Shown here piece after piece: positions 158-20,004 of a stretch of DNA of 64,000 nucleotides. Origin of the DNA: Bailinhaonella thermotolerans. GTDB lineage: Bacteria; Actinomycetota; Actinomycetes; Streptosporangiales; Streptosporangiaceae. The stretch spans positions 1 through 64,000 of the forward strand of contig NZ_QZEY01000015.1 of the NCBI RefSeq assembly GCF_003594875.1, written 5' to 3'. How positions within the stretch are numbered: position 1 is the first letter of the stretch; the number at the start of each line of letters is the position of its first letter. The translations under genes were made by a program, and so were the position numbers. The notes below the pieces were generated by a model, which was not told where the DNA came from, did not search any database, and saw only the letters and a list, made by a program, of their open reading frames with translations.

Positions 158-577
<420 letters not shown>

Positions 578-3500
578 TCAGAGGGTCAGCCGGGTGATCG
601 CGGACTCCACGGCGGCCAGGCGGTCGGCCACGAGGCCCAGGGCGGCGACGGCTCGCGTCGCGGGCTCGTCGCCCGCGCCGCCGAGGGCCTGGTCGCGGAC
701 GTACGCCGCCTTGATCTCGGTCCAGCGGCGGGCCCGCTCGGGGGTCAGCGTGCCGCGCAGCTCGGCGAGCTTGAGGAGGTTGGCCTCCGCGCCGCTCGCC
801 AGCATCTGGGCCTCAGCCTGGTAGTGGTCGTCGATCAGGGCCTCCAGCTCATCCCGGTTCATGGCCGGGACGACCCGCTCGGCCAGCTTGTTCATGTTCC
901 GGTAGGAGCCCTGGAGCTGGAACGGGGGCTCGGTGCGGGAGGCGTCGGACCGCGCGGCGGAGTCGATGTAGGCGCGGTTCACCGCCATGACGACCTCCTG
1001 GACCCGCACGAGGTGGCGCAGCACGGCGAGGATCTGGTCGAGCTCGGCCGCGGAGTACGGCCGGGCCAGCCCGTCGGGGTGGGCGGTGGGGTCGCCCTGC
1101 GCCAGCCGTACGAGGAGGTCCAGGTCGGAGCGCCCGGCGGCGGCCAGCGGGGCCAGGACCGGGTTGGACGTCAGGGCGTTCTCCAGGTAGCTGAGGGCGA
1201 AGACCTCGTCGCGGCCGGAGAGGACGTCGCCCAGGTTCCACACGTCGGCCCGGTTCGCGAGCATGTCGGGGACGCGGAACCGGCGGCCGGACTCGGTGTA
1301 CGGGTTGCCGGCCATGCAGACGGCGAAGCGCTTCCCGCGCAGGTCGTAGGTGCGGGTGACGCCGTTCCAGACGCCCTCCATGCGCCGCTGGGCGTCGCAC
1401 AGGGAGATGAACCGCTGCAGCAGCTCGGGGCTGGTGTGCTGGATGTCGTCGAGGTAGAGCAGGACGTTGCCGCCCATCTCCAGGGCGAAGTTGATCTTGT
1501 CCACCTCCTGCCTGGCGGTGGCGTCGGGGGCCTCGGCGGGGTCCAGGCTCGTCACTGCGTGGCCCAGCGCGGGCCCGTTGACCTTGACGAACGTCAGGCC
1601 GAGGCGGTCGGCGACGTACTCCATCAGGGTGGTCTTGCCGTATCCCGGCGGGGAGATCAGCAGGAGCAGCCCCATCTGGTCCGTGCGCTTGGCGTCCCCG
1701 GCCGCGCCGAGCTGCTTGGCCAGGTTGTCGCCGATGAGCGGCAGGTAGACCTCGTCGAGCAGGCGGTTGCGGACGAACGCGCTCATCACCCGCGGCCGGT
1801 ACTCCTCCAGGCGCAGCCGCGCGCGCTCCCGGGCCACCAGGTCGTTGCGGAGCCGCTGGTAGGCGCGGTACGCCGGGACGCGTTCGGCGCGGAAGGCGCG
1901 GGTGCGGGCGAGGGTCTCGTCCAGGCGCAGGCCGAGACGGCGGCCGGCGATCCGGGGGTGGGCGCCGAGGAGGCCGTCCACGGTCGCGGTGAGCGTCGCC
2001 GCGGACTCGTGCCGGGGCAGGGCGCCCCCGCAGAGCTCGATCGCGATCGCCTCGGGCAGGTCGTGCTCGGCGCCCGCGGCCTCCTCCACGGCGCCCGACG
2101 CCCGCTCCGCCGCGAGGTAGGCCCGGAACCACGCCTCCGCGAGCTGCCGCCGGGCCGCCAGGTCGTCGCCCAGCGCGCGCAGGTCGTCGTCGAACTCCTT
2201 GGCGCGCGGCCCGCCCAGCGCCCGGCGGAACCGCTCCACCAGGCGGCGGGCCCCGGCGCCGGTCACGAACCCGAACGGCGCGGTCGCCAGCTCCTCGAAG
2301 AGGTACTCCCCGGCCAGGCCCGCGCCGCCCGCCGCGCTGACTCCACCAGCCGCGCCCGTCCCGCCGGAGTGCCCGTCCCCGGGGTGCCCGGTGAAGGCGG
2401 TGATCGCCGCGTCCAGCTCCGCGCACAGGGCGGCGATCGCGTCCCCGCCGAGCCCGAACGCCTCCCGGGCCCGACCGAGCGACCGCGCCCGGGTCGTCCA
2501 CGTCCCCCGCGCCCGCTCGTCCGCGCCGAAGGCCCAGAAGAGCTGCGCCGCCGCCCGCGCCGCCGGGGGATACCGCAGCGTGCCCGCCCCGGCGTGCAGC
2601 CGCAGCAGCGCGTCGAGGATCGCCGCCGCGTCGTGGTCGTGCACGCCGCGCTCGTACCCCTCGTCGTACCGGGACGCGGCGGCCCGCCGTACGACGTCGA
2701 GCAGCCCGCCCTCGGCCACCGCGGCCTCGTGCAGCGCCTCCAGCGTCAGCCCCCGCTCGCCGCCGGCCCGCGGCCCGGGACCCCCCGCCCCGTTCGCGCC
2801 GGTCGCGTGGCTCAGGCCGTACGGCGCGGCGCCCGACGCCTCGGCGAGGACGGCCGCGGCCAGGTGCTCGGCGCGGTACACCTCGGGCGTCTCGGAGACC
2901 AGGAGCTGGTCCCAGTACGGCCGGGTGGCCTCGAACGCGGCGTCGCGGACGGGCTGCCGGTAGTCGGTGCCGGTGATGGCGTACGCCATGCCGCCCTCGT
3001 GCGGCACGAGCGTCAGGTCGAGCGGCTGGGTGTTGACCGCGAACCGGTGCCGGCCCAGCCGGATCGCCGCGCCGCCGGCGTCGTAGAGGTCGGCCCGGTC
3101 GCGCAGCCCCCGCCCGGCCTCCTGGCGCGCGGCCTTGAGCCGCCCGGCCAGTTCCTCGGCGCGGACCTGGTCGCCGAGGGCGCGGAGCTCCTCGGCCACC
3201 GCGCGGACCCGCGCCACCATCGGGTCCGCCGCGAAGTAGGTGTTCACCTCGTCCTGCGAGCCCAGGGCGGCCAGGCGCCGCCGTACCCCGGACAGGACGC
3301 GCTCGGCCGACTCCATCAGCCGGTCCGCGCGCCGCGCGCGCTCGTCCAGGAGCGCCTGCCGCCGCGAGGAGAACGCCTCGTAGACGTCCTCCCGCTTGGT
3401 CGCCAGCTCGGCCAGGAAGTCGTCGAAGTCGGCGAACCGCGTCTCCAGGTTCTCCACCTGGAGCAGCAGCCGCCCGAGCTGTTCCTCGCACCGCTCCGGG

Positions 3501-5686
3501 GTGTCCGCCATCGCCAGCGCGCCCGTGATCGCCTGCCCGAGCAGCGCGAACTCGGCCGCGAACTCCGCCCGCCCCTCGGCCGACCGCAGCTCCCGGCGGC
3601 GCGCGTCCAGGGTGGCCCGAGCGCGGTTGACCCCGGCCAGCACCTCCCCGACGCGTTCCAGGATCGCCGTGCGCACGGTGGCGTCGGCGATGTCCAGCGT
3701 CCCGACGACCTCGACGACGATCTCCAGCCCCGCCGACTGCTCGCCCAGGCGCTCCCCGATCGGCCCGGCCTCCGCCACCGTCCCGATCCCGGCGGCCTGC
3801 CCGACCAGCTCCGACACCTGCGCCTGGTAGTCGGCGAACGCGTCCCGCCCGCGCAGGAACTCGACCGCCCGCCGGGCCGCCGCCGTGACCTCCTCCTCCA
3901 GCCGCGCCGCGAGCACGTCGATCCGCTCCAGGTCGGCGTACCGCAGCTCGCGCAGCGTCGCCAGGTGGCCCTGGGCCCGCCGCAGGTCCGCGAGCCGGGT
4001 CACCCACGCCCGCGCGCTGAGCGGGGTCTCGCCGCGCGCCCGCCGCGCCAGCGCCTCGACCGACGCCTCCGCCTCGCCGACCGCGGCCGCGGCCTGCTCC
4101 GTGAGCCGCTGGACCTGCTCGTACTCCTCCAGCGCGCGCTCGGCCGTCGCCCGCAGCTCCGCCAGCGGCGTGCGCAGGTCGCCCAGCTCGGGGTCGCCCA
4201 GCCAGTGGTACTGGTCGAACAGCCGCGTGCACGTCCCCACCAGCGCCTCGAACACCGCCGCCGACGGGTTCATCTCGCGCGCCATCCGGGCCGCCGACAC
4301 GCAGTCGGAGATGCCGCGCACCAGCTCGGCGTTCCCGATGCGCTCCAGCGGGCCGGTCCCCACCGGCTGCCGCGCGGCGTACGTGTCCGAGACGTACGGC
4401 GTCTGCCACACCTGCATCGGGTGCACCCGGGTCGGCTCGTCGGAGTCCGCCCGGAAGATCACCATCGTGCCGTCCTCGAACAGGGAGTACCCGTGGCACG
4501 GGATCGGCGTCGCCACCTCCTTGCGGATCATGTTGTACGGCAGGAGCAGCGTCCGCCCCTCGGCCCGCGCGTGGAACACGTACAGCGCGTCCTCGCCGTT
4601 GGGGGAGCGGATCACCCGCTCGAACTCCAGGCTCTCCACGTCGGTGTCGAACGTCTTCACGACCCCGGTGACCAGGTAGTACCCGCCGGGGAAGATGATC
4701 CCCTGGTCCTCGGGGAGCCGCTGGCACGCCTGCCCGATCCCGTCCAGCCGCGCCACGGTCCGCGTGCGCGTGTTGAAGACCAGGTGCCGCCAGGCCGTCT
4801 CGTTGTACGGCCGGACGCGCAGCAGGATCAGCGGCCCCACCCGGGCGTGGTGCACGTCGGCGTCCGCCAGGCTCTGCAGCCTCTCGGCGACCGGCTCGCT
4901 GTAGACGCCCTCCCCGGTCTCGGTGTTGTTCTCCACCTTGATCGTCAGGTCGCCGCCGATCGTCTCGACGAACAGCTCGCCCCCGATCGAGATGTGCGGG
5001 TGCCGCCCGAGCACGTGGTCCTCGCGGGTCGTCTCGACCCACTCGAAGTCGTGCGCGGGCGGGAACACGTGGTCACGCTCGCCCCGGTTGTCGATGTACT
5101 CGGCGGTCCCGTCCGGGGCCACCCGCCAGCGCAGCACCCGGATGTCCTCGGTGCGCGGCCCCGTCTGGAACACCGCCAGCAGCTTGCCCTCGACCCGCCG
5201 GAGCTGGAGCAGCCGGGTCTCCCGGTAGTAGCGGTACAGCTCGGCGAAGTCCCGCTCGAACGCCGGGTCGGCGAACAGCGCGGAGGACGCCCGGTCGAAC
5301 CGGAAGGCGTCCCCCTCCCGCGTGAAGGTGTGCAGCGAGAACACGTCCGCCACGGTCGTCTCGGGCTTGAGCCCGATGAACACGTTGTACCCGAACACCA
5401 TCACGCCGCCGACGGACACGATGTCGCGGGGCACGCAGTTGTTCTCGGTCCGCAGCCGCTCGGTCCCGACGACCCGCAGCTCCGCCCCGCCGAACACCTC
5501 CACCCGCCGCGAGTTCAGCCCCTCGGCCCGGCGCGCCAGCTCCCCGGCCTGCTCGGCCAGCCGCGCGCGCAGCACCTCGTAGGTCCCGGTCCCGAGGGCC
5601 GGGCCCTCCGCCGGCCCCGGCCCGGCGGTTCCCCGCCGGGCCGGCTCCCGCCGCCCTGACTCCTGCGGCACTGTCTCCTGCGTCAC
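578..5686 (-). CDS. Giant (1702 aa) protein with C-terminal AAA+ ATPase domain; N-terminal ~450-aa beta-rich domain and central ~700-aa Ala/Arg/Glu/Leu-rich helical (coiled-coil-like) region of unknown function
   Basis: Single uninterrupted ORF with GTG start and an aggaacgcggag RBS. Walker A LLLISPPGYGKTTLMEY, Walker B NVLLYLDDIQH and a sensor-like FAVCMAGNPY motif are confined to the last ~350 aa. No TM segments. Sits 79 bp downstream of the flotillin gene on the same strand. Confidence 0.85.
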   Translation of the reverse strand: MTQETVPQESGRREPARRGTAGPGPAEGPALGTGTYEVLRARLAEQAGELARRAEGLNSRRVEVFGGAELRVVGTERLRTENNCVPRDIVSVGGVMVFGYNVFIGLKPETTVADVFSLHTFTREGDAFRFDRASSALFADPAFERDFAELYRYYRETRLLQLRRVEGKLLAVFQTGPRTEDIRVLRWRVAPDGTAEYIDNRGERDHVFPPAHDFEWVETTREDHVLGRHPHISIGGELFVETIGGDLTIKVENNTETGEGVYSEPVAERLQSLADADVHHARVGPLILLRVRPYNETAWRHLVFNTRTRTVARLDGIGQACQRLPEDQGIIFPGGYYLVTGVVKTFDTDVESLEFERVIRSPNGEDALYVFHARAEGRTLLLPYNMIRKEVATPIPCHGYSLFEDGTMVIFRADSDEPTRVHPMQVWQTPYVSDTYAARQPVGTGPLERIGNAELVRGISDCVSAARMAREMNPSAAVFEALVGTCTRLFDQYHWLGDPELGDLRTPLAELRATAERALEEYEQVQRLTEQAAAAVGEAEASVEALARRARGETPLSARAWVTRLADLRRAQGHLATLRELRYADLERIDVLAARLEEEVTAAARRAVEFLRGRDAFADYQAQVSELVGQAAGIGTVAEAGPIGERLGEQSAGLEIVVEVVGTLDIADATVRTAILERVGEVLAGVNRARATLDARRRELRSAEGRAEFAAEFALLGQAITGALAMADTPERCEEQLGRLLLQVENLETRFADFDDFLAELATKREDVYEAFSSRRQALLDERARRADRLMESAERVLSGVRRRLAALGSQDEVNTYFAADPMVARVRAVAEELRALGDQVRAEELAGRLKAARQEAGRGLRDRADLYDAGGAAIRLGRHRFAVNTQPLDLTLVPHEGGMAYAITGTDYRQPVRDAAFEATRPYWDQLLVSETPEVYRAEHLAAAVLAEASGAAPYGLSHATGANGAGGPGPRAGGERGLTLEALHEAAVAEGGLLDVVRRAAASRYDEGYERGVHDHDAAAILDALLRLHAGAGTLRYPPAARAAAQLFWAFGADERARGTWTTRARSLGRAREAFGLGGDAIAALCAELDAAITAFTGHPGDGHSGGTGAAGGVSAAGGAGLAGEYLFEELATAPFGFVTGAGARRLVERFRRALGGPRAKEFDDDLRALGDDLAARRQLAEAWFRAYLAAERASGAVEEAAGAEHDLPEAIAIELCGGALPRHESAATLTATVDGLLGAHPRIAGRRLGLRLDETLARTRAFRAERVPAYRAYQRLRNDLVARERARLRLEEYRPRVMSAFVRNRLLDEVYLPLIGDNLAKQLGAAGDAKRTDQMGLLLLISPPGYGKTTLMEYVADRLGLTFVKVNGPALGHAVTSLDPAEAPDATARQEVDKINFALEMGGNVLLYLDDIQHTSPELLQRFISLCDAQRRMEGVWNGVTRTYDLRGKRFAVCMAGNPYTESGRRFRVPDMLANRADVWNLGDVLSGRDEVFALSYLENALTSNPVLAPLAAAGRSDLDLLVRLAQGDPTAHPDGLARPYSAAELDQILAVLRHLVRVQEVVMAVNRAYIDSAARSDASRTEPPFQLQGSYRNMNKLAERVVPAMNRDELEALIDDHYQAEAQMLASGAEANLLKLAELRGTLTPERARRWTEIKAAYVRDQALGGAGDEPATRAVAALGLVADRLAAVESAITRLTL

Positions 5687-5765
5687 GTACGGCTCCGCGT
5701 TCCTAGCCTGGTGGTCGTCGGTCGGGCCCGCGCCCCCGCGTGGCCCGGGCGGGGTTCCGGGGGCG

Positions 5766-7832
5766 TCAGTCGGCGCTGGTCGCGGTCACTGCCGGGGCGC
5801 GCTGGGGGGCCGCGGCGGAGGCGAGGAGTTCCTGGAGCCTGCCGGGGTCGCCGCCGCCGGACTGGAGGAACTTGGCGAGGGCCGCGGAGAGGGTCAGGTC
5901 GCGCACTCCGGCCGGGTTGAGCGAGCCGAGCAGCTTGGCCAGGTCCTCCGGGAGGCTGGACTCGCCGTCCAGCCAGGGGGCGCCGAGCCGCTGGGCGACC
6001 TGGGAGTGCTCCACGAAGCCGTCCACGCTCTTGCCCATGCCGACCGCCGAGGTGACGCGGTCGAAGAAGGCCCCGTCGCCGCCGACGATGTCGATGTCGG
6101 CCTTGGCCAGGCCCGCGGCGAGCACCTCGGCCTGGGCCTCGGCCACCCGGCGCTGGACCTCGATGCCGGCCAGCCGGACCTCCTTGTCGGCCTCCAGGCG
6201 CAGGCGGTACTCCTCGTGCGCCCGGCTGGCCTCGTCCAGCGCGGCCATCGCGGCGGCCTTCTCGGTCAGGCCCTCGGCCTCGGCCTTCAGCCGCTCGCCC
6301 ACCGCCGCCGCGGCCGCGAGCGCCTTGGCCTGCTCGCCCTCCGCCTCGGCCTTCAGCCGCTCGCCGATCCCGGCGGCCTCGGCCAGTGCCTTCTCGCGCT
6401 CGACGACCGCCTCGGCGCGGCCCACCTTCTCGATGGCCTCGGCGTCGCGCTCACGCACCTGCACCTGGGCCAGCCCCGCCGCCGCGGCCTCGGCCTGGAC
6501 ACCCTCGGCCAGCCGGATCTTGGCGCGCGCGTCCAGGTCGGCGGCCTGCTGCCGCGCCTCGGCGAGCACCAGCTCCTCGCGGGCCCGGAACTTGGCGGCC
6601 TGCTCGGCGGCCTCGGCGGCCTTGATGCCCTTGACCAGGTTCTCCTGCGCCTCGGCCTCGGCCTGGATCACCACCGCCTGGCGGGTGCGCTCGGCCTCCT
6701 CGACCACGCGCAGCCGCTTGATGTTCTCCTCCTGCTCGGCGACGGTCTTCTCGACCGCGATCCGCTCGCGGACCACCTCGGCCACGCCCCGCCGTTCGGT
6801 CTCGACCTCCTTGTCCTTGGCGATCTTGGACAGCTCGGTCTCCCGGTCGCGGGCGATGACCTCCAGCAGGCGGTCCTTCTCGATCCGCTCGCTCTCGATC
6901 GCGATCACGCGCTCGCGGTTCTTCTGGGCGACGGCGATCTCGCGGTCGCGGTTCTCGCGCTGGATGCCGAGCTGCTCGTCGGTGCGGATGCCCGCGGTCT
7001 GGGCCTTCAGCCGCTCCTCGGCCTGGACCTTGGCGATCTCGGCCTCCTCGCGGGCGCGCATGGTCTCGACCTCGCGCTTCTGCTTGATCTCCGCGTCGGC
7101 CTGGCGGCGTTCGAGTTCGAGGATGGCCTCCCGGGCGTCCACGTTCTGCCGGGTGATCTCCTTCTCCTCGTGGCGGCGGAACTCGTTGGTGCGCACGTGC
7201 TCGATCGCCGTCAGCTCGGTGATCTTGCGGATGCCCTGGGCGTCGAGGATGTTGTCGGCGTTGAGCTGGTCGAGCGGCGTCTGCTCCAGGTAGTCGATCG
7301 CCGCGTCCTCCAGGCTGTACCCGTTGAGGTCGGTGCCGATGACCTGGATGATCTGGTCGCGGAACTCCTCGCGCTTGGTGTAGAGGTCCACGAAGTCGAG
7401 CTGCTTGCCGACGGTCTTGAGCGCCTCGGAGAACTTGGCGTTGAACAGCGTCTGGAGCGTGCCCTCGTCGCTCGCGCGCTCGGTGCCGATGGCCTGCGCC
7501 ACCTTGATCACGTCCTCGGCGGTCTTGTTGACCCGCACGAAGAACGAGATGCGGATGTCCGCCCGGATGTTGTCCTGGCAGATCAGGCCCTCCTGGCCGC
7601 TGCGCTCGATCTCGATGGTCTTCACCGAGATGTCCATGATCTCGGCCTTGTGGAGCACGGGCAGCACCACGGCCCCGGTGAACGTCACGTCCACGTTCCG
7701 GACCTTGGAGATGATCAGCGCCTTGCCCTGCTCGACCTTGCGGAACAGGCGGCCGACGACGAGCAGCAGGACGAGCGCGAGCAGCAGGACGACGGCCAGG
7801 AGCACGCCGAAACCGGTGGAGATGACGTCCAT
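5766..7832 (-). CDS. Flotillin family protein (SPFH/band-7 domain, N-terminal membrane anchor, C-terminal EA-rich coiled coil)
   Basis: N-terminal hydrophobic segment GFGVLLAVVLLLALVLLLVV, then an SPFH core (ALIISKVRNVDVTF...ISVKTIEIERSGQEGLICQDNIRADIRISFFVRV) and a long C-terminal tail of AEAEG/EA repeats typical of FloT/YuaG. Confidence 0.9.
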   Translation of the reverse strand: MDVISTGFGVLLAVVLLLALVLLLVVGRLFRKVEQGKALIISKVRNVDVTFTGAVVLPVLHKAEIMDISVKTIEIERSGQEGLICQDNIRADIRISFFVRVNKTAEDVIKVAQAIGTERASDEGTLQTLFNAKFSEALKTVGKQLDFVDLYTKREEFRDQIIQVIGTDLNGYSLEDAAIDYLEQTPLDQLNADNILDAQGIRKITELTAIEHVRTNEFRRHEEKEITRQNVDAREAILELERRQADAEIKQKREVETMRAREEAEIAKVQAEERLKAQTAGIRTDEQLGIQRENRDREIAVAQKNRERVIAIESERIEKDRLLEVIARDRETELSKIAKDKEVETERRGVAEVVRERIAVEKTVAEQEENIKRLRVVEEAERTRQAVVIQAEAEAQENLVKGIKAAEAAEQAAKFRAREELVLAEARQQAADLDARAKIRLAEGVQAEAAAAGLAQVQVRERDAEAIEKVGRAEAVVEREKALAEAAGIGERLKAEAEGEQAKALAAAAAVGERLKAEAEGLTEKAAAMAALDEASRAHEEYRLRLEADKEVRLAGIEVQRRVAEAQAEVLAAGLAKADIDIVGGDGAFFDRVTSAVGMGKSVDGFVEHSQVAQRLGAPWLDGESSLPEDLAKLLGSLNPAGVRDLTLSAALAKFLQSGGGDPGRLQELLASAAAPQRAPAVTATSAD

Positions 7833-7860
7833 GTGGTCCCTTGAGGTGAGGAGACGTACG

Positions 7861-8481
7861 TCAGGTGAGAGGTCGTTCCGGGTCGAGCCCGGCGTCGTAC
7901 GGCATGACGCGGAAGAACTCGCCCGCCGTGTCGTAGTCGAAGATCAGCGCGCGGTCGCCGGCGCGCAGCGGCGCGTCCCCGTCGATCCCCCGGACCTGGA
8001 CGATCGCGGTGGAGCCGTCCGCGGCGCGCACCTCGGCCTGCCCGAAGTCCCCGGTCACGCGTCCGGTGCGGATCACGCACATCCGCCCCACGAAGTCGTT
8101 CCGTGAGGGCGCCCGCTCGCTCGCGAAGACCCGCCGCAGCGGCGTCACCAGCGACCGGGTCCCGAGCCAGGCGGCCCCGAGGGCGACGGCGAGCACGAGC
8201 ACGCGCATCGCCGTACCGGAGACCAGGGCGCTTCCGGCCAGGCTGACGAACCAGGCCAGCACGACGAGCAGCGAGAGCACGACGGTGACCGGAACGCCGC
8301 CGAGGCCGAGCGCCGGGAGAAAACCCGAGGAGGCGTTTTCTGCGCCGACGTCATCCCCGTCCAGAATGTCGAGATCGAGCCCGATGAGCAGGGCCAGGAG
8401 CCAGTAGATGACGACGATCACCAGGGCGAAGCTGAACAACACGGTGGGAAAAGCAAGTGCGACCCCCATGAATTCGCCCAT
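7861..8481 (-). CDS. NfeD-like (YuaF/YqiJ-type) membrane protein with C-terminal OB-fold beta-barrel
   Basis: C-terminal 206 aa of ORF 7861..9873, starting MGEFMGVALAF. Three predicted TM helices are followed by a soluble domain (GRMCVIRTGRVTGDFGQAEVRAADGSTAIVQVRG...LIFDYD). Stop lies 28 bp before the flotillin start, the classic NfeD-SPFH pairing. Confidence 0.8.
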   Translation of the reverse strand: MGEFMGVALAFPTVLFSFALVIVVIYWLLALLIGLDLDILDGDDVGAENASSGFLPALGLGGVPVTVVLSLLVVLAWFVSLAGSALVSGTAMRVLVLAVALGAAWLGTRSLVTPLRRVFASERAPSRNDFVGRMCVIRTGRVTGDFGQAEVRAADGSTAIVQVRGIDGDAPLRAGDRALIFDYDTAGEFFRVMPYDAGLDPERPLT

Positions 8482-8692
8482 GTCGGCGACGATCCTCCCC
8501 GGCCATCGGCCCCAACGATCCCCCGATCCTGGATGGCTGACCCCGGAACATATCCTCATATTTCCGGGGTTGCAATGCTTTCGACCGATTAATTGTGTGG
8601 GAAACGTGCGGAGAGCGCCGCGGAGTTCCCTCGCGGCGATCGTCTTTTGCGGAAATCGGGGTAACTTTCTGTCATCGACTCCATCGGATTCC
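8482..8692. promoter_or_regulatory. Divergent promoter region between the NfeD-flotillin operon and the sugar ABC operon, with a palindrome CCGGAACATATCCTCATATTTCCGG
   Basis: AT-richer 210-bp gap. Imperfect dyad CCGGAA-N13-TTCCGG at ~8545-8569 and TTGCAA / TTAATTGTGTGG -35/-10-like hexamers. Confidence 0.4.
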
Positions 8693-8844
8693 GTGACCGC
8701 GCTCACCGCCGGAGGAGGCCGCGCGCGCCTCGCCGCGCCCCCGCCTTCTCCCGCGGCCTCGCGGCGGGCTGCCTGCTCGCCGCGGCCGCCGCGTGCGGGG
8801 ATTCCGGTGAGCGGGACGCGCGGGAGCTGACCGTCTGGCTCCAG

Positions 8845-10002
8845 GTGGACGCGCGGCTCCAGTGGCCCGAGGCGGTCGCCGCCGCCACCGCGGACTTCTC
8901 CCGGCGGCATCCCGGGGTGCGGGTGAAGGTGGCCTACCAGTCCTGGTCGGACCACACCGCCAAGTTCGACGCCTCCGCGCAGGGCGGCCGGACCCCCGAC
9001 GTGATCGAGATGGGCACCACCGAGACGCCGCAGTACATAGCCGCGGGTGCCTTCGCCGACCTGACGGCCGAGAAGGCGACCTTCGAGCACTCCGCCGCCT
9101 GGCTGCCCGCGCTGACCACCGCGTGCACGCACGCCGGGCGCCTGCGCTGCGTGCCGTACTACGGCTCCAACCGCGCCGTCGTCTACCGCCGCGACCTGCT
9201 CGCGGAGGCCGGCGCGACCGAGCCGCCCCGCACCTGGCGGGAGCTGATGGCGCTGATCGGCCGGCTGTCCGCGCGGCACCGGGCCGACCCGGCGTTCTCG
9301 CCGTTCTTCTTCCCGGGCCAGCACCAGTACGCCGCGATGCCGTTCGTCTACGACGCGGGCGGCGCGGTCGCCGTACGGCGGGCCGACGGCTCGTGGGACG
9401 CGCGGTTCTCCTCGCCGGAGGGGCGGCGCGGGCTGGCGAACTGGAAGGCGCTGATGGACGCGGGCTACCGGGGCGACCGCACGATCAACGACCTGACCGC
9501 GTTCAGCACGATGGTCGCGGGCAAGACGGCGATGTTCTACGACGCGGGCGGGCACCTGCGCCGGGTGTACGGCCCGCAGGGCGATCCGGCGCTCGCGGAC
9601 CTGGTGGGCTCGTTCCGGCTGCCGAGCCCGGCGCGGAAGGGCGCGTACGTCCCGTCGTTCATGGGCGGGTCGGTGCTGGCCGTGCCGGTGAAGAGCCGGC
9701 ACCGGCGGTGGGCGTTGGACTGGATCCGGGCCTACACCGCGACGGCGAACCAGCGGCGGTTCGTCGCGGGCGGGGGACTGGCGAGCTCGACGGCGGTGAC
9801 GGCCCGCGACCCGCGCATGAAGGGCTACGTCGAGTCGCTGACCGGGACGTGGAGCGTGCCGTCCGCGGAGCACTGGGCGCAGGTGGAGAAGACCAAGATC
9901 ATCCCGAACATGCTGGTGGACATCGCCACCGGGCAGGTGAGCGTCGCCGCCGCGACCCGCGCCGCCGACGGCGCCATCGAAGAGATCCTGAACGGCTCGT
10001 GA
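8845..10002 (+). CDS. ABC transporter substrate-binding protein (family 1, sugar-type); 5' end apparently frameshifted (signal peptide/lipobox encoded upstream in a frame lacking a start codon)
   Basis: SBP family-1-like body. Upstream (8710-8844) the same frame encodes RRRPRAPRRAPAFSRGLAAGCLLAAAAACGDSGE (lipoprotein signal) with no ATG/GTG/TTG. A GTG at 8693 in the -1 frame would join if the C5 run at 8738-8742 were C6. Confidence 0.7.
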   Translation: MDARLQWPEAVAAATADFSRRHPGVRVKVAYQSWSDHTAKFDASAQGGRTPDVIEMGTTETPQYIAAGAFADLTAEKATFEHSAAWLPALTTACTHAGRLRCVPYYGSNRAVVYRRDLLAEAGATEPPRTWRELMALIGRLSARHRADPAFSPFFFPGQHQYAAMPFVYDAGGAVAVRRADGSWDARFSSPEGRRGLANWKALMDAGYRGDRTINDLTAFSTMVAGKTAMFYDAGGHLRRVYGPQGDPALADLVGSFRLPSPARKGAYVPSFMGGSVLAVPVKSRHRRWALDWIRAYTATANQRRFVAGGGLASSTAVTARDPRMKGYVESLTGTWSVPSAEHWAQVEKTKIIPNMLVDIATGQVSVAAATRAADGAIEEILNGS

Positions 10003-11042
10003 TGTCCGAGCGCGAGACCGCCGACCCAGGCCGCACGGCCGCGCGCCGCGACGCCCCGCGCGCCGGTTCGGGATCCGGTTCGGGATCCGGATCGGGTGCC
10101 GGGCCTGGTTCCGGTTCGCGTTCCGGTCCTCGGCACGGTTCGCGTTCCGGTTCGGGGTCCGGTTCGCGGCGGGGGCCGCGCGGCCTGCCGTACCTGCTCA
10201 TCGGGCCGGCGCTGGTCGTGATGGCGGCGGTGCTGGGGTTCCCGCTGGTCCGGGTCGTGGTGCTGTCGTTCCAGGACTGGGGGCTGGCGCAGATCTTCAC
10301 CGACCGCGCGCCGGAGTTCGCGGCCGGCCGTAACTACCGGCGGATCGTGACGGACCGGGCGTTCTGGAGCGCGCTGCGGCGCACGGTGGTGCTCACGGTG
10401 GCGATGGTCGCGCTGTCCATGGCGGCCGGGGTCTCGATCGCGCTGCTGATGGAGCGCGTGCCCGCGTGGATACGGCGGGCCGTGACGTTCGTGCTGGTGC
10501 TCGCGTGGGCCGTGCCGAGCTTCGTGTCCACGCAGGTGTTCGCGTGGATGACCGACCAGAACGCCGGGGTGCTGAACTCGCTGCTCGGGCTGGGCCGGCA
10601 CAACTGGTACATCGACAGCGCGCAGGGCCTGTCGGTCACGACCGCGATCGTGGTGTGGGGCGCGGTGCCGTTCATCGCGATCACGACGTACGCCGCGCTG
10701 ACCCAGGTCCCCGCCGAGATCGTCGAGGCGGCGCGGGTGGACGGCGCGACCGGGTGGCAGGTGCTGCGCCGCATCACGCTCCCGGTGATCCGGCCGGTCC
10801 TGGTGATCCTCACGGCGCTGTCGGTGATCTGGGACTTCCAGGTGTTCAACCAGATCTGGATCCTGCGCAACGCCGCCCCGGCGCCCGGCTACCAGACCCT
10901 GTCGATCTACTCCTACGTCAAGGCGTACCAGGGGCACGAGTACGGCTACGCGTCCGCCGTCGCCGTGGTCACCGTCCTGCTCCTGCTGGTCGTCATGGTG
11001 TTCTACCTGCGGCGCATTGTCCGGGCGGGGGAGGGCTCGTGA
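10002..11042 (+). CDS. ABC transporter permease (MalF/UgpA-like) with N-terminal Gly-Ser repeat region
   Basis: ATG overlaps the SBP stop (TGATG). Six TM segments, an EAA-like loop, and an N-terminal GSGSGSGSGSGAGPGSGS... stretch encoded by a ggttcgggatcc tandem repeat. Confidence 0.85.
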   Translation: MSERETADPGRTAARRDAPRAGSGSGSGSGSGAGPGSGSRSGPRHGSRSGSGSGSRRGPRGLPYLLIGPALVVMAAVLGFPLVRVVVLSFQDWGLAQIFTDRAPEFAAGRNYRRIVTDRAFWSALRRTVVLTVAMVALSMAAGVSIALLMERVPAWIRRAVTFVLVLAWAVPSFVSTQVFAWMTDQNAGVLNSLLGLGRHNWYIDSAQGLSVTTAIVVWGAVPFIAITTYAALTQVPAEIVEAARVDGATGWQVLRRITLPVIRPVLVILTALSVIWDFQVFNQIWILRNAAPAPGYQTLSIYSYVKAYQGHEYGYASAVAVVTVLLLLVVMVFYLRRIVRAGEGS

Positions 11043-11854
11043 GGCGATGGGTCTTCGGCGCGCTCGGGATCGCGGTCCTCGTGATCTGGGCGTTCCCGGT
11101 GTACTGGATGGCGGTGACGGCGTTCAAGCCGGGGCGGGAGATGTTCGCCGTGCCCCCGCGGCTGCTGCCCGCGAACCCGACCCTGGCCAACTTCGGTCAC
11201 GTCCTGTCCGACGGCGAGTTCTGGCGCAGCGCCCAGAACAGCCTGATCGTCGCCGCCTGCACGGTCCTGGCCGCGATGGCGTTCGCGTTCCTGGCCTCCC
11301 TGGCGCTGGCCCGCTTCGCGTTCCGGGGGCGGCGGGCGCTGCTGGTCGCCCTGATCGTCGTCCAGATGGTTCCGCACGTGGCGCTGGTCATCCCGATCTT
11401 CCTGACCCTCGGGCCGCTGCGGCTGACCGACGCCCTGCCCGGCCTCGTGATCTCCTACCTGGCGTTCGCGCTGCCGTTCGCGATCTGGACCCTGCGCGGC
11501 TTCGTCGCCGGGGTCCCGCGCGACCTGGAGGAGGCCGCGATGGTGGACGGGTGCACCCGCATGGGCGCGTTCCGCCGGGTCGTGCTGCCGCTGATCTTCC
11601 CCGGGCTCGTCGCCACCTCGATCTACACGCTGATCCTGGCCTGGAACGAATACCTCCTGACGTACTTCCTGATCAGCAGCCCCGAGCACTACACGCTGCC
11701 GCTGTGGCTGACCCACTTCATCACCACGGAGGGCACCGAGTACGGCCCGCTCATGGCGGGCGCGACCCTGATCGCCACCCCGGTGGCCGTGTTCTTCGCG
11801 CTCGTGCAGCGCCACCTCGCCCGCGGCCTGACCGCCGGCGCGGTCAAGGGCTGA
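11039..11854 (+). CDS. ABC transporter permease (MalG/UgpE-like)
   Basis: GTG overlaps the previous stop (GTGA). Six TM helices and a conserved EAAxxDG loop (LEEAAMVDGCTRMGAFRRVVLP). Confidence 0.85.
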   Translation: MRRWVFGALGIAVLVIWAFPVYWMAVTAFKPGREMFAVPPRLLPANPTLANFGHVLSDGEFWRSAQNSLIVAACTVLAAMAFAFLASLALARFAFRGRRALLVALIVVQMVPHVALVIPIFLTLGPLRLTDALPGLVISYLAFALPFAIWTLRGFVAGVPRDLEEAAMVDGCTRMGAFRRVVLPLIFPGLVATSIYTLILAWNEYLLTYFLISSPEHYTLPLWLTHFITTEGTEYGPLMAGATLIATPVAVFFALVQRHLARGLTAGAVKG

Positions 11855-11911
11855 GCCGGGGGACGGGCGGCCGGGGCGCGGCCCCCGGAACCTTTCGCGG
11901 CGAGCCCCGGT

Positions 11912-13120
11912 ATGAGGGGCGTGGATCTTGCGGCGAGAGGGGTTCCGATGCGGATGAGGGCGGCGGTCCTGGCGGCGGCGGGCGTGGTCGCCGTGGCGTG
12001 CGGGGCCGGATGCGCGCCGGCGGGCGGGCCGGCGTCCGCACCCGTCTCCGCGGGCACGGCGATCGCGTCCGGTACGGCTCACGCGCCCGGCACGCCCGGG
12101 ACGTCCGCCCCGGCGGGCGCGGGGGCGTCCCCGGCGGCGGACGGGGCGGGGCGGGAGCGGGCGGTGTACGCGATCGACTTCGCGGACGCCCGGCACGGCT
12201 ACGCGCTCCGGTCCTCCTGCACGGGCGGCGAGCGGTACCGGTGCGACACCGACGTGATCGCGACCGAGGACGGGGGACGGACGTGGGCGCGCCGGGCCTC
12301 GCCGGTGGGTGAGGTGCGGGCCCCGGACGGGCTGTCGGCGGGGCTGCACGTGCTGGGGCGGGACCGGGTGGTCGTGGAGGACCGCGGCCGCCGCTGGTTC
12401 AGCGCGGACGGCGCGCGCCGCTGGAAGGACGCCGACCGGCCCGGGGCGCGGCCGGTGGACGCCGTCCCCGGGGGCGGGGTGCTGACGGCGGTGTGCGGGG
12501 ACCAGGGGTGCGGGCGCCCGCTCGTGCTGCTCCCGGAGTCGGGGGCCCGCGCGCCGCTGGCCTCCCTGCCCGCGCTCACCGACTGGCGCGTCTCCCAGGG
12601 CGTGCCGGCGGCGGACGGGACGTGGTGGGCGGCGGGCCGGCGGCCGGGGTCGCGGGAATGGTCGCTGGCCGGGTCACGCGACTCGGGCCGGACCTGGTCG
12701 GTGCGGCCCCTCCCCGGCCTGACCGGCAACGTCTTCGGCGTGTCCGTGTCGGCCGGGCCGTCCGCGACGTACGCCGTGGTGCGCGGCGAGCTGCCGGGGG
12801 AGCAGGTGAAGAACGGGCTCCTGGCGATCTACCGGAGCGCGGACGGCGGGCGGACCTGGGAGCGGACGTGGCGGCACCGGCCCGGGGTCGCGCCGCTCTC
12901 GTCGCTGGGCGCCGGGATCGCCGCCGCGGACGGGCGGCTGATGATCGCGGGGGAGGACCGGCGCGTGCACACCAGCCGGGACGGCGGGCGCTCGTTCACG
13001 GCCTCCGGCCCGGCGGACGTGGCGGGCTGGGTGAGCTGGACCCGGGCGGGTTACCTGAACCAGGACGGCGACCGGCTGCGGCTGTCGGCGGACGGGCTCA
13101 CCTGGCGCGACATCGCCTGA
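11912..13120 (+). CDS. Secreted lipoprotein with BNR/Ycf48-like repeats (SxDGGxTW motifs)
   Basis: Lipobox AVACGAGC and repeated TEDGGRTW, SRDSGRTW, SADGGRTW, SRDGGRSF motifs. Real start may be the internal ATG at 11948. Confidence 0.7.
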   Translation: MRGVDLAARGVPMRMRAAVLAAAGVVAVACGAGCAPAGGPASAPVSAGTAIASGTAHAPGTPGTSAPAGAGASPAADGAGRERAVYAIDFADARHGYALRSSCTGGERYRCDTDVIATEDGGRTWARRASPVGEVRAPDGLSAGLHVLGRDRVVVEDRGRRWFSADGARRWKDADRPGARPVDAVPGGGVLTAVCGDQGCGRPLVLLPESGARAPLASLPALTDWRVSQGVPAADGTWWAAGRRPGSREWSLAGSRDSGRTWSVRPLPGLTGNVFGVSVSAGPSATYAVVRGELPGEQVKNGLLAIYRSADGGRTWERTWRHRPGVAPLSSLGAGIAAADGRLMIAGEDRRVHTSRDGGRSFTASGPADVAGWVSWTRAGYLNQDGDRLRLSADGLTWRDIA

Positions 13121-13145
13121 GACCACCGCGGCGACGGATGCCACG

Positions 13146-13220
13146 GCCGCGCCTGAGGCCATCCCGGGGACGGGCGCCGGGGGCCGCGCCTGAGGCCATC
13201 CCGGGGGCGGGCGCCGGGGC
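13146..13220. repeat. 2 x ~38-bp direct tandem repeat in convergent intergenic region
   Basis: gccgcgcctgaggccatcccggggacgggcgccggggg followed by a near-identical copy. Confidence 0.6.
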
Positions 13221-13241
13221 CGTGGCCCGTCGCGGTATCAG

Positions 13242-14000: not shown

Positions 14001-14060
14001 GTGCCAGGCGGCCGAGGAGAGGGTACCGGGGAAGGCCTCGCCGCCGCCCCGGCGGCCGGA

Positions 14061-15575: not shown

Positions 15576-15624
15576 CTCCCAGGGAGCGTCCTCTCCGCCA
15601 CGGTAACCCGGCTTCCGCGTGGTT

Positions 15625-16146: not shown

Positions 16147-16183
16147 GCCACCCCCTCCGGAAGGGTAGACCGCCGTTCCCGCT

Positions 16184-16197
16184 ATTGCGCGGGCAAT
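16184..16197. promoter_or_regulatory. Candidate MarR operator (ATTGCgcggGCAAT dyad) in the MarR/cupin divergent promoter
   Basis: Inverted repeat ATTGC-N4-GCAAT between divergent starts at 16146 and 16272, next to an AT-rich catataggcatatat -10-like segment. Confidence 0.35.
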
Positions 16198-16271
16198 CCG
16201 CCGGTGTTAGGAACCATATAGGCATATATCTTGCCACTCAACTAAATCCCCCAGGTCACAAGAGGTGGAAC

Positions 16272-16769: not shown

Positions 16770-16772
16770 CCG

Positions 16773-17762: not shown

Positions 17763-17792
17763 AACCCCCGCGCGCACTCCCAGGAGTACCCG

Positions 17793-19968: not shown

Positions 19969-20004
19969 CGCGCGGCGGCCACGGGCGGGATGGAGAGGGA
20001 GCGG

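What the first reader, a model, noticed from the sequence alone, without database searches (positions are those of the whole stretch)
578..5686. 1702-aa protein: AAA+ module confined to the C-terminal ~350 aa; ~1300 aa of unassigned N-terminal and coiled-coil sequence
Walker A (GYGKTT), Walker B (LLYLDDIQH) and an NP-containing sensor motif occur once, near residue 1290-1450. The first ~450 aa are beta-rich with aromatic/acidic motifs. Residues ~480-1150 are extremely Ala/Arg/Glu/Leu-rich, consistent with a long coiled coil or helical bundle. No TM helices. The architecture resembles neither a STAND NTPase nor a dynamin and is unusual for bacteria.
Basis: seen in the sequence. Interest (0 to 1): 0.7.

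Follow-up and report, generated by a model that had tools for sequence, protein, structure and literature searches.

The report
Flotillin-linked giant AAA+ ATPase, BacE-like
The 1,702-residue gene is real, but it belongs to a widespread, already catalogued family (labelled "DNA repair ATPase"; BacE in Pseudomonas aeruginosa) that always sits beside a membrane flotillin gene and whose function has never been tested directly.

Summary
The ORF 578..5686 (- strand) is one genuine gene. GC3 is 0.97-1.00 in every 300-nt block, and homologues align collinearly over 98-100% of its length.

The N-terminal part is not unassigned. It matches Pfam DUF3686 (E=1e-223) and DUF7902 (E=1e-30). The architecture is not unusual: more than 6,500 90%-identity clusters across at least nine phyla carry it.

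The gene ends a conserved operon: a YqiJ/NfeD-like 3TM protein (7861..8481), a YqiK-like flotillin (5766..7832), then the ATPase. The flotillin gene lies directly upstream in every related locus that has enough flank.

Ravi et al. 2024 described this operon computationally as PspA-linked. All three proteins are full-length homologues (35-50% identity) of P. aeruginosa BacC, BacD and BacE. The bacABCDEF operon there has a putative sigma54 promoter and is induced by phage infection.

The most likely role is an ATP-driven remodeller working with the flotillin (and PspA) scaffold under the membrane. The "DNA repair" name has no support. The family is known and the mechanism remains untested, so interest is modest.

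The parts
578..5686 (-). Gene for the 1702-aa DUF3686/DUF7902/AAA+ protein (BacE-like; named 'DNA repair ATPase' in databases). The stop codon is 578-580.
   Evidence: ORF and translation. Uniform GC3 of 0.985. Pfam hits. 100% identity to nr 'DNA repair ATPase [Bailinhaonella thermotolerans]'. 49% identity over 1659 aa to P. aeruginosa P0390, which is PA3728/BacE.
4205..5542 (-). N-terminal beta-rich domain (aa 49-494, Pfam DUF3686); a divergent beta-propeller-like fold preceded by a long helix (aa 35-65).
3086..4204 (-). Long-helix region (aa 495-867) of spectrin-like antiparallel bundles. It includes DUF7902 (aa 615-699, window 3590-3844).
2951..3067 (-). Small five-strand beta domain (aa 874-912) containing the conserved G-x-H-R-F-x-V-N-T-Q motif.
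   Evidence: The same strands appear in both AF2 models. G878, F882, V884 and N885 are invariant.
1799..2875 (-). Helical middle domain (aa 938-1296) with the invariant motif G-Y-x-R-G-x-H-D-x-D (aa 1010-1019, window 2630-2659) and two disordered inserts (aa 956-977 and 1106-1119). Its function is unknown.
   Evidence: AF2 at pLDDT >90 apart from the inserts. Invariant G1010, G1014, H1016, D1017, D1019 and R1044. No fold match other than AAA+ for this model.
947..1789 (-). AAA+ module (aa 1300-1580). Walker A SPPGYGKTT is at window 1628-1654, Walker B LLYLDDIQH at 1436-1462, sensor-1 MAGNPYTE at 1292-1315 and candidate Arg finger PDMLANR at 1250-1270. A beta hairpin lies between helix 3 and strand 4 (pre-sensor-1 position).
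   Evidence: Pfam AAA, AAA_5, AAA_22 and RuvB_N hits are weak. Foldseek gives RuvB, NorQ, MCM and ClpB at probability 1.0 and E about 1e-4. Motifs are invariant across phyla. Secondary structure is and coordinates.
581..931 (-). C-terminal helical domain (aa 1586-1702), starting with the invariant E-P-x-F-x-L-Q-G-S-Y-R-N-M motif, which includes a possible sensor-2 arginine.
   Evidence: AF2 helices. Invariant columns.
5766..7832 (-). Upstream partner gene: a 688-aa flotillin-type protein with an N-terminal TM helix, an SPFH/Band-7 domain, a long Glu/Ala-rich coiled coil and a conserved C-terminal region (YqiK/BacD/PaFlo3-like).
   Evidence: Band_7 at E=7e-11 on the first 250 aa. 29% identity over 459 aa to E. 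coli YqiK, E=7e-40. 50% identity over 636 aa to P. aeruginosa BacD. It lies directly upstream on the same strand in 77-78 of 82 related loci.
7861..8481 (-). First gene of the operon: a 206-aa protein with three hydrophobic segments and a C-terminal beta domain (YqiJ/short-NfeD/BacC-like).
   Evidence: Translation. tblastn with homologues from other loci. Conserved in 47 loci. Alignment across five phyla. hhalign to E. coli YqiJ gives probability 67% and E=5e-5. 35% identity to P. aeruginosa BacC, E=8e-25. No Pfam hit.

Best explanation
The protein is the ATPase subunit of a three-gene, membrane-associated module: a YqiJ/NfeD-like 3TM protein, a YqiK-type flotillin, and this beta-propeller-like + helical-bundle + AAA+ protein. 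The module corresponds to bacC-bacD-bacE of Pseudomonas aeruginosa.

Proposed mechanism:
- The flotillin is anchored by one N-terminal TM helix, and its SPFH and coiled-coil parts face the cytoplasm, where they form an oligomeric scaffold.
- The soluble ATPase docks on that scaffold through its N-terminal beta domain and spectrin-like helical arm, and oligomerises through its AAA+ module.
- It uses ATP to assemble, disassemble or reshape the flotillin lattice, and the PspA/ESCRT-III-like lattice where one is present, during envelope stress.

This would parallel Vps4 acting on ESCRT-III, or FtsH working inside the HflK/C cage.

Shown here: gene reality, domain anatomy, intact and invariant ATPase motifs, strict gene linkage to the flotillin and 3TM genes across phyla, and repeated fusion of the module to yjfI-pspA operons. 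Taken from papers on the P. aeruginosa operon: co-transcription, co-regulation and phage induction. Inferred: physical docking, oligomeric state, the identity of the substrate, and that ATP hydrolysis drives remodelling.
For: 1. Linkage. The flotillin gene is immediately upstream on the same strand in 77-78 of 82 loci. The exceptions are loci truncated upstream, plus Vibrio, where BLASTP still finds the homologue. It shares 49-50% identity with the Myxococcus and Pseudomonas partners. The 3TM gene is conserved in Actinomycetota, Myxococcota, Deinococcota, Pseudomonadota and Verrucomicrobiota. Intergenic gaps in the window are 28 and 79 nt.

2. PspA link. The order yjfI(DUF2170)-PspA_IM30-3TM-SPFH-DUF3686 AAA+ occurs in a MAG, Reinekea, plasmid pQBR103 and P. 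aeruginosa. Ravi et al. 2024 describe the same operon and its 'abbreviated' form.

3. Experimental context in P. aeruginosa, from papers:
- bacA-F are co-transcribed.
- A sigma54-type promoter is proposed.
- BacB-F rise 6-13.5-fold, and PA14_16190 8.9-fold, in a bacA mutant.
- BacB increases on osmotic shock.

4. Topology. The flotillin has a single N-terminal TM helix followed by R/K residues, and the ATPase has no TM helix, so both can meet in the cytoplasm.

5. ATPase. The AAA+ fold is confirmed, and the Walker A, Walker B, sensor-1 and Arg-finger positions are invariant in 93 sequences from at least eight phyla.

6. Conservation. Identity is 70-75% between actinomycete orders over 1650 aa, which implies strong constraint along the whole protein, as expected for a multi-contact machine.
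Against: No direct experiment on any family member was found: there is no knockout phenotype, ATPase assay or interaction data for BacE.
- Walker B is hhhhDD rather than DE in every member, and the first Walker A glycine is Ser. Hydrolysis may therefore be slow or use other residues.
- No aromatic pore-loop-1 motif lies between strand 2 and helix 2 (read directly from the alignment), so classical substrate threading is doubtful.
- Deleting the P. aeruginosa flotillin partner paFlo3 changed biofilm by only about 20%.
- No PspA or YjfI homologue lies in the 64-kb window or within 6 kb of the 82 related loci, so the PspA connection is not universal.
- No complex prediction could be run.
Confidence: 0.5

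Rival explanations
1. Client-directed chaperone or extractase. The flotillin only provides a platform, and the ATPase acts on other membrane or sub-membrane proteins recruited into flotillin microdomains, unfolding, extracting or assembling them. This would resemble FtsH with HflK/C, or MoxR/NorQ-type maturation ATPases, rather than remodelling the flotillin lattice itself.
For: The closest AAA+ structures include NorQ (MoxR family) and RuvB. PF07728 AAA_5 scores 23.8 bits against a cutoff of 22. SPFH-AAA+ protease partnerships such as HflK/C-FtsH are established (papers listed). The large beta-propeller-like domain and the unexplained invariant GYxRGxHDxD domain could bind clients.
Against: No protease, VWA or other client-handling partner is conserved next to the gene. 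There is no aromatic pore loop. No client is known.
Confidence: 0.2
2. Anti-phage or conflict system. The module senses phage-induced membrane damage and triggers a protective or abortive response.
For: PA3728-PA3732 are upregulated in all phage-infected P. aeruginosa samples. In Vibrio chagasii the module lies among RNA-ligase/kinase, HipBA, TelA and NAD-salvage genes, an island-like context. Copies exist on megaplasmids such as pQBR103 and Deinococcus plasmids.
Against: No significant PADLOC match: the best is IetA at E=0.0019 on the P-loop only. The gene is very strongly conserved across actinomycete orders (70-75% identity), and one cluster of 3,222 sequences covers P. aeruginosa. That pattern is unlike patchy defence genes. 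Induction by phage is also what a general envelope-stress (Psp-type) operon would show.
Confidence: 0.1
3. Mainly structural or regulatory protein. The AAA+ module binds nucleotide as a switch but does no mechanical work, and the protein serves as a long scaffold under the membrane.
For: Walker B has DD rather than DE, and the Walker A variant SPPGYGKT is invariant. About 800 residues of long helices resemble spectrin repeats.
Against: The sensor-1 Asn, the Arg-finger position and the motifs flanking the AAA+ module are all invariant across phyla. That is typical of an active, oligomerising ATPase.
Confidence: 0.1
4. DNA repair ATPase, as the database name states: a RuvB-like motor acting on DNA.
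For: The name is carried by Pfam PF12458 and NCBI. There is weak local similarity to RuvB around the P-loop: NCBIfam RuvB 25 bits, Pfam RuvB_N E=1.7e-4, and Foldseek top hits to RuvB.
Against: The RuvB equivalog score is 25 bits against a cutoff of 282. The sequence similarity is confined to about 45 residues at the P-loop. No DNA-binding domain was found. The conserved neighbours are membrane proteins, not repair genes. The only papers found that use the label quote or shorten the annotation.
Confidence: 0.03

Closest known systems
Pseudomonas aeruginosa BacE (PA3728 / PA14_16190) in the bacABCDEF 'biofilm-associated cluster' operon (Wallart et al. 2024, PMC10948618; Mace et al. 2008 as cited there)
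   Same: Full-length homologue: 49% identity over 1659 aa with the same DUF3686-DUF7902-AAA+ architecture. The two upstream genes also correspond: flotillin BacD/PaFlo3 at 50% identity, and 3TM BacC at 35% identity.
   Different: The window lacks bacA (DUF2170/YjfI), bacB (PspA) and bacF (PLD-like). The regulation (sigma54, RsmA) described for Pseudomonas has not been examined in this actinomycete.
The 'Betapropeller+Coiled-coil+AAA-ATPase' protein of the CesT/Tir-PspA-YqiJ/YuaF-Band-7/flotillin operon (Ravi et al. 2024, mSystems, PMC11237479)
   Same: Same domain order and same two neighbours. The paper explicitly notes 'abbreviated operons' with only the flotillin, the YqiJ/YuaF protein and the AAA+ ATPase, which is what the window has. 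The full form carries DUF3686 proteins.
   Different: That description is purely computational. Here the beta domain matches solved propellers only weakly, so 'propeller' is a fold-class call rather than a close match.
Escherichia coli yqiJ-yqiK (NfeD-like membrane protein plus flotillin)
   Same: The window's flotillin aligns with YqiK at 29% identity over 459 aa, E=7e-40. The 3TM protein family aligns with YqiJ (hhalign E=5e-5). The gene order is the same.
   Different: E. coli K-12 has no ATPase gene after yqiK; small RNA/toxin genes follow instead.
HflK/C-FtsH, and other SPFH cages paired with AAA+ proteases
   Same: An SPFH-family membrane scaffold is genetically and functionally coupled to an AAA+ ATPase.
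   Different: FtsH is membrane-anchored and carries a protease domain, and HflK/C face the periplasm (established knowledge). Here the ATPase is soluble, has no protease domain, and its partner is predicted to face the cytoplasm.
Vps4 with ESCRT-III, including PspA/Vipp1 as bacterial ESCRT-III relatives
   Same: A soluble AAA+ ATPase is linked to a polymerising, membrane-shaping helical protein. The module is fused to pspA operons in several proteobacterial lineages.
   Different: There is no MIT domain. The AAA+ module is not the classical clade: it has a pre-sensor-1 hairpin, and its nearest structures are RuvB, NorQ and MCM. PspA is absent from the window.
MoxR/NorQ-type and RuvB-type AAA+ ATPases
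   Same: These are the nearest solved AAA+ folds. The 'NP...E..G....PDxLxNR' sensor-1 to Arg-finger stretch looks MoxR-like (my reading of the motif), and there is a borderline AAA_5 hit.
   Different: No VWA partner, RuvA/RuvC partner or DNA-binding domain is present. The protein has about 1300 extra N-terminal residues, and Walker B is DD.

Membership tests
Pfam DUF3686 / DUF7902 'DNA repair ATPase' family (NCBI name) | Full-length match to PF12458 above the gathering score | tested here: met
   743.2 bits against a cutoff of 25, aa 49-494, profile positions 1-448 of 448.
Pfam DUF3686 / DUF7902 'DNA repair ATPase' family (NCBI name) | PF25472 (DUF7902) in the helical middle region | tested here: met
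   105.8 bits against a cutoff of 26, aa 615-699.
Pfam DUF3686 / DUF7902 'DNA repair ATPase' family (NCBI name) | Single C-terminal AAA+ module with the family motifs SPPGYGKTT, DDIQH, MAGNPYTE and PDMLxNR, and a total length of about 1600-2050 aa | tested here: met
   Invariant columns in the 16- and 93-sequence alignments. Lengths of full-length members.
YqiJ/YuaF - flotillin - (beta-propeller + coiled-coil + AAA+) operon of Ravi et al. 2024 / bacCDE of P. aeruginosa | Adjacent upstream gene with TM + Band-7/SPFH + coiled coil + flotillin-type C-terminus | tested here: met
   Band_7 E=7e-11. Homology to YqiK (E=7e-40) and to BacD (50% identity). Adjacency in 77-78 of 82 loci. The Pfam 'Flot' model itself did not hit.
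YqiJ/YuaF - flotillin - (beta-propeller + coiled-coil + AAA+) operon of Ravi et al. 2024 / bacCDE of P. aeruginosa | 3TM YqiJ/YuaF (short NfeD)-type gene in the operon | tested here: met
   Three hydrophobic segments. BLASTP to BacC gives E=8e-25. hhalign to E. coli YqiJ gives E=5e-5 at only 67% probability. No Pfam DUF1449 or NfeD hit.
YqiJ/YuaF - flotillin - (beta-propeller + coiled-coil + AAA+) operon of Ravi et al. 2024 / bacCDE of P. aeruginosa | N-terminal beta-propeller followed by a coiled coil in the ATPase | tested here: inconclusive
Full PspA-linked form (bacABCDEF; CesT/Tir-PspA dyad) | yjfI (DUF2170) and pspA genes directly upstream, and a PLD-like gene downstream | tested here: not met
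   tblastn with PspA and YjfI queries finds nothing in the window or in the 82 loci. The gene downstream in the window is an atpE-like gene. The window therefore holds the abbreviated form.
AAA+ superfamily | AAA+ alpha/beta core and lid fold | tested here: met
   Foldseek probability 1.0 to RuvB, NorQ, MCM, ClpB and FtsH. The strand order is visible in the AF2 secondary structure.
AAA+ superfamily | Canonical Walker A GxxxxGK[ST] and Walker B hhhhDE | tested here: inconclusive
   GK[T] is present, but the first Gly is Ser. Walker B is LLYLDD, with Asp in place of the catalytic Glu. Both variants are invariant in the family.
AAA+ superfamily | ATP hydrolysis and ring oligomerisation | not testable with these tools
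   This needs purified protein. No multimer prediction was available.
MoxR / AAA_5 subfamily | PF07728 match and a VWA-domain partner | tested here: inconclusive
   PF07728 scores 23.8 bits against a cutoff of 22. No conserved VWA neighbour was found. No helix-2 insert is evident in the AF2 secondary structure.
RuvB / DNA-repair motors | Equivalog-level match to RuvB and a DNA-repair gene context | tested here: not met
   NF000868 scores 25.4 bits against a cutoff of 282, and TIGR00635 scores 21.6 against 299. The similarity is limited to about 45 residues. The conserved neighbours are membrane proteins.
Known anti-phage defence systems (PADLOC-DB) | Significant match to a defence-system protein model | tested here: not met
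   Best hits are IetA at E=0.0019 and mad8 at E=0.0098, on the P-loop only.

The most novel reading that the evidence does not exclude
The family is a dedicated disassembly and remodelling motor for flotillin/SPFH lattices, in effect a 'Vps4 or NSF for flotillin'. Its propeller-like head and spectrin-like arm would grip the flotillin coiled-coil cap, while the AAA+ ring pulls subunits out. To my knowledge no ATP-driven recycling factor is known for any SPFH assembly in any organism. A variant not excluded is that the unexplained invariant GYxRGxHDxD domain carries a second, enzymatic activity.
Probability: 0.25. Interest if true: 0.7.

Novelty: already known. Interest (0 to 1): 0.3.

Why it matters
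How bacterial flotillin and other SPFH scaffolds are built, turned over and coupled to the PspA/ESCRT-III membrane-repair machinery is still unclear. This family is the one ATPase that is genetically locked to a flotillin in at least nine phyla, and it is present in tractable organisms such as P. aeruginosa, Streptomyces, Myxococcus and Vibrio. Three practical points follow. The database name 'DNA repair ATPase' is unsupported and misleads annotation. The actinomycete operon is the minimal three-gene form, which makes it a clean system for testing flotillin-ATPase coupling without PspA. The invariant motifs listed here give ready mutagenesis targets. As a discovery from this window, however, it is a member of a family that is already catalogued and already noted in the literature.

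Tried and rejected
- Frameshift or gene fusion: rejected on uniform GC3 and collinear full-length homologues.
- Alternative long ORFs on the other strand or frame: rejected as high-GC shadows.
- Sequence search of PDB with the protein and with a 16-sequence profile: only P-loop matches, so no solved relative exists.
- PADLOC: nothing significant.
- NCBIfam: only sub-threshold RuvB, CDC48 and RFC P-loop hits.
- Pfam on the full-length flotillin partner: no hit, because the low-complexity coiled coil masks it. It hit only when the first 250 aa were given. The Pfam 'Flot' model did not hit the C-terminus.
- Pfam and PDB on the 3TM protein: nothing.
- Self-profile comparison for propeller blades: no repeats.
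- Promoter and terminator scan: uninformative in this high-GC DNA.
- The downstream ATP-synthase c-like gene as a fourth operon member: rejected, 0 of 82 loci.
- PspA or YjfI nearby: none.
- Literature searches for DUF3686, PF12458, 'DNA repair ATPase' + flotillin or SPFH, and PilZ + Myxococcus + AAA + flotillin: zero papers.
- Two of nine encoding-contig look-ups found no record.
Full report
**Is the gene real?**

The window has about 73% G+C. It comes from Bailinhaonella thermotolerans (Streptosporangiales), judged by a 100% identical nr protein. ORF 578..5686 on the minus strand encodes 1702 aa from a GTG start. Its codon-position GC is 0.77/0.50/0.985, and GC3 stays at 0.97-1.00 in all seventeen 100-codon blocks. 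The two other long ORFs over the same DNA, 824..5659 (+) and 849..5042 (-), have the GC-rich position in the wrong codon slot and translate to Arg/Pro/Gly-rich nonsense.

Homologues of 1600-1750 aa from other actinomycete orders align over 98-100% of the length at 70-75% identity. It is therefore one gene, with no frameshift or fusion. The GTG at 5686 has GGAG six bases upstream. The shorter 1665-aa database start would delete the near-invariant G34/Y36, so the long start is preferred.

**Anatomy**

Pfam gives DUF3686 (PF12458, 'ATPase involved in DNA repair') at aa 49-494 with E=1e-223. It gives DUF7902 at aa 615-699 with E=1e-30, and only weak AAA, AAA_5, AAA_22 and RuvB_N hits at aa 1331-1464.

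Two AlphaFold2 models were built on a 93-sequence alignment spanning several phyla. The model of aa 30-1000 has pLDDT 87.5 and pTM 0.65. The model of aa 860-1702 has pLDDT 90.4 and pTM 0.85. Together they show:
- a long N-terminal helix (aa 35-65);
- about 28 beta strands (aa 71-428);
- long helices of up to 58 residues (aa 446-867);
- a small five-strand beta domain (aa 874-912);
- a second helical domain (aa 938-1296) with two disordered inserts;
- an AAA+ core and lid (about aa 1300-1580);
- a C-terminal helical domain.

The fold searches gave these results:
- Foldseek on the C-terminal half finds only AAA+ proteins (RuvB, NorQ, MCM, ClpB, FtsH) at E about 1e-4 and probability 1.0.
- Foldseek on the N-terminal half finds only beta-propeller proteins: TLE6 in the SCMC complex, sialidases, prolyl oligopeptidase, clathrin heavy chain, paraoxonase and WD40 proteins. 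These score E=7e-6 to 6e-4 but with low TM-scores.

The beta domain is therefore propeller-like but divergent, and the helical arm resembles spectrin repeats. No TM helix is present. No solved structure of a relative exists, by either sequence or profile search.

**ATPase motifs**

Several motifs are invariant across 16 sequences from eight phyla, and nearly so across 93:
- Walker A S-P-P-G-Y-G-K-T-T (aa 1345-1353);
- Walker B L-L-Y-L-D-D-I-Q-H (aa 1409-1417);
- M-A-G-N-P-Y-T-E (sensor-1 Asn 1461);
- P-D-M-L-A-N-R (candidate Arg finger R1479);
- F-V-R-N..L..Y.P just before the module;
- E-P-x-F-x-L-Q-G-S-Y-R-N-M after the lid.

Three features deviate from the norm. Walker A begins with Ser rather than Gly. 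Walker B has Asp-Asp rather than Asp-Glu. No aromatic pore-loop motif lies between strand 2 and helix 2. A beta hairpin sits between helix 3 and strand 4, the position of the pre-sensor-1 hairpin of the RuvB/MCM/MoxR-type clades. That clade assignment rests on my knowledge of AAA+ classification.

An unexplained invariant motif, G-Y-x-R-G-x-H-D-x-D (aa 1010-1019), lies in the middle helical domain.

**How common is it?**

The full protein retrieves 6,573 90%-identity clusters, and a Pseudomonas member retrieves 5,870. The N-terminal domain alone hits 747 50%-identity clusters among 1.84 billion representatives. In full-length hits it is always at the N-terminus of proteins of 1600-2050 aa.

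Members occur in:
- Actinomycetota;
- Gammaproteobacteria (Vibrio, Reinekea, Pseudomonas, Lysobacter, Proteus);
- Myxococcota;
- Clostridia;
- Verrucomicrobiota;
- Acidobacteriota;
- Armatimonadota;
- Bacteroidota;
- Deinococcota.

Some members carry an extra N-terminal PilZ domain. The architecture is thus common, not unusual.

**Neighbourhood**

The gene directly upstream (5766..7832, minus strand, 79-nt gap) encodes a 688-aa protein. It has one N-terminal TM helix, an SPFH/Band-7 domain (E=7e-11 once the low-complexity coiled coil is removed), a long Glu/Ala-rich coiled coil and a conserved C-terminal region. It is homologous to E. coli flotillin YqiK at 29% identity over 459 aa, E=7e-40.

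A homologue lies immediately upstream on the same strand in 77-78 of 82 related loci. The exceptions are three or four loci with no or too little upstream sequence, and Vibrio, where BLASTP still shows the homologue.

A third gene (7861..8481, 28-nt gap) encodes a 206-aa protein with three hydrophobic segments and a C-terminal beta domain. It is conserved in 47 of the loci and in Myxococcus, Deinococcus, Pseudomonas and Verrucomicrobiales. It aligns with E. coli YqiJ (hhalign E=5e-5, probability 67%).

The ATP-synthase c-like gene downstream (158..388) occurs in none of the 82 loci and is not part of the module.

**What the literature already says**

Ravi et al. 2024 (mSystems, PMC11237479) describe an operon combining five elements:
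- a CesT/Tir-like YjfI protein;
- PspA;
[quoted passage not shown] - a 3TM YqiJ/YuaF-type protein.

They add that abbreviated operons with only the last three genes are more widespread and may work with PspA encoded elsewhere. Their table lists 'Betapropeller+Coiled-coil+AAA-ATPase'.

I confirmed that the ATPase in the full form is a DUF3686 protein. The order DUF2170-PspA_IM30-3TM-SPFH-DUF3686 AAA+ occurs in a MAG, in Reinekea, on plasmid pQBR103 and in the P. aeruginosa chromosome.

In P. aeruginosa the downstream genes are PLD-like, YaeQ, RecJ and the M4 peptidase LasB. These place the ATPase at PA3728 = PA14_16190, which is BacE of the bacABCDEF 'biofilm-associated cluster'. The window's three proteins are full-length homologues of the P. 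aeruginosa proteins:

| Window protein | P. aeruginosa homologue | Identity |
|---|---|---|
| ATPase | BacE | 49% over 1659 aa |
| Flotillin | BacD/PaFlo3 | 50% over 636 aa |
| 3TM protein | BacC | 35%, E=8e-25 |

Published data on that operon:
- Co-transcription of bacA-F by RT-PCR, and a proposed sigma54 promoter.
- A 6-13.5-fold rise of BacB-F in a sessile bacA mutant, with PA14_16190 up 8.9-fold.
- Biofilm, rhamnolipid and virulence defects in bacA and bacB mutants (PMC10948618).
- Upregulation of PA3728-PA3732 in all phage-infected samples (PMC12041424).
- About 20% less biofilm in a paFlo3 deletion (PMC13086221).
- Recurrent PA3728 mutations in cystic-fibrosis isolates (PMC8190622).
- Listing of PA14_16190 in an RsmA-regulation analysis (PMC8855297).

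I found no experiment that tests the ATPase itself.

**Most likely mechanism**

Shown:
- The ATPase is strictly co-inherited with a flotillin and a YqiJ/NfeD-like membrane protein in one operon.
- The module is repeatedly appended to yjfI-pspA envelope-stress operons.
- The ATPase is soluble. The flotillin's single TM helix is followed by basic residues, which by the positive-inside rule places its bulk in the cytoplasm.
- The AAA+ motifs are under strong purifying selection.

Inferred:
- The ATPase docks through its propeller-like head and spectrin-like arm on the flotillin scaffold.
- It forms a ring through the AAA+ module.
- It uses ATP to assemble, disassemble or reshape flotillin (and PspA) assemblies during membrane stress.

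I put this at about 0.5.

The nearest rival, at 0.2, is that the flotillin is only a platform and the ATPase works on client proteins. A defence-system reading (0.1) fits the phage induction and some island or plasmid contexts, but not the strong conservation across lineages or the lack of PADLOC matches. A mostly structural role (0.1) is suggested by the DD Walker B. The 'DNA repair' name (0.03) rests only on a P-loop-level resemblance to RuvB: 25 bits against a cutoff of 282.

**Novelty and verdict**

The protein belongs to a family already in Pfam and NCBI. The family has been described in comparative genomics and has a named orthologue in a model pathogen, so I rate it 'already known'. What remains open is the biochemical function. 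The most novel reading still allowed is a dedicated flotillin-lattice remodelling motor (probability about 0.25). Interest is 0.3.

Noticed in passing
window 158-388 (- strand): An orphan 76-aa F0 ATP-synthase c-subunit-like gene lies directly downstream of the big gene, with an AGGAAGG ribosome-binding site. It passes TIGR01260 (47.9 bits against a cutoff of 43.95) but scores below the cutoff of the actinobacterial equivalog NF005900 (78.5 against 114). No atpB gene precedes it, and it is absent next to the module in all 82 related loci.
   Followed up: partly
window 5576-5686 (- strand): The database version of the protein (P0001, 1665 aa) starts 37 codons downstream of the GTG at 5686. That start would remove the near-invariant G34/Y36. 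The GTG at 5686 has GGAG 6 nt upstream, so the public start is probably annotated too short.
   Followed up: partly
window 2630-2659 (- strand), aa 1010-1019: The motif G-Y-x-R-G-x-H-D-x-D, together with R1044, is invariant across phyla. It sits in a helical domain that has no fold or family match. It could be a catalytic or metal site, or a conserved interface.
   Followed up: no
window 824-5659 (+) and 849-5042 (-): ORFs of 1611 aa and 1397 aa overlap the real gene. They are shadows typical of ~75% G+C DNA: the GC-rich codon position is in the wrong slot.
   Followed up: yes
proteins P0343, P0352, P0361, P0365, P0367-P0369, P0371, P0386; locus L084 4517-5998: Some family members (one from a Polyangiaceae MAG, most from unnamed metagenome records) carry an N-terminal PilZ domain (PF07238). 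In a Deinococcus plasmid a GGDEF gene sits directly upstream of the three-gene module. This hints at c-di-GMP control in some lineages.
   Followed up: no
L001 (Vibrio chagasii) 2575-5232 and 13191-20821: The Vibrio copy lies in an island-like region. Neighbours include RNA ligase, an HD/AAA_33 kinase-like gene, R2K genes, HipBA, TelA, NUDIX and NAPRTase.
   Followed up: no
L083 (plasmid pQBR103, NC_009444.1) 968-14172: The P. fluorescens megaplasmid carries a long same-strand array: yjfI, PspA, rhomboid, DUF2491, DUF350, DUF1190, glutathionylspermidine-synthase-like, the 3TM gene, SPFH and the ATPase. This merges two of the PspA contexts that Ravi et al. describe separately.
   Followed up: partly
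L090 (P. aeruginosa) 13260-13952: A PLD-like (PLDc_2) gene, bacF, follows the ATPase in Pseudomonas. It is absent from the window. The actinomycete operon is the minimal three-gene form.
   Followed up: partly
window 7000-8500: G+C drops to 0.665-0.68, against 0.70-0.80 elsewhere, across the 5' part of the flotillin gene and the 3TM gene. Strong AT skew of opposite sign appears on either side of about 7500.
   Followed up: no
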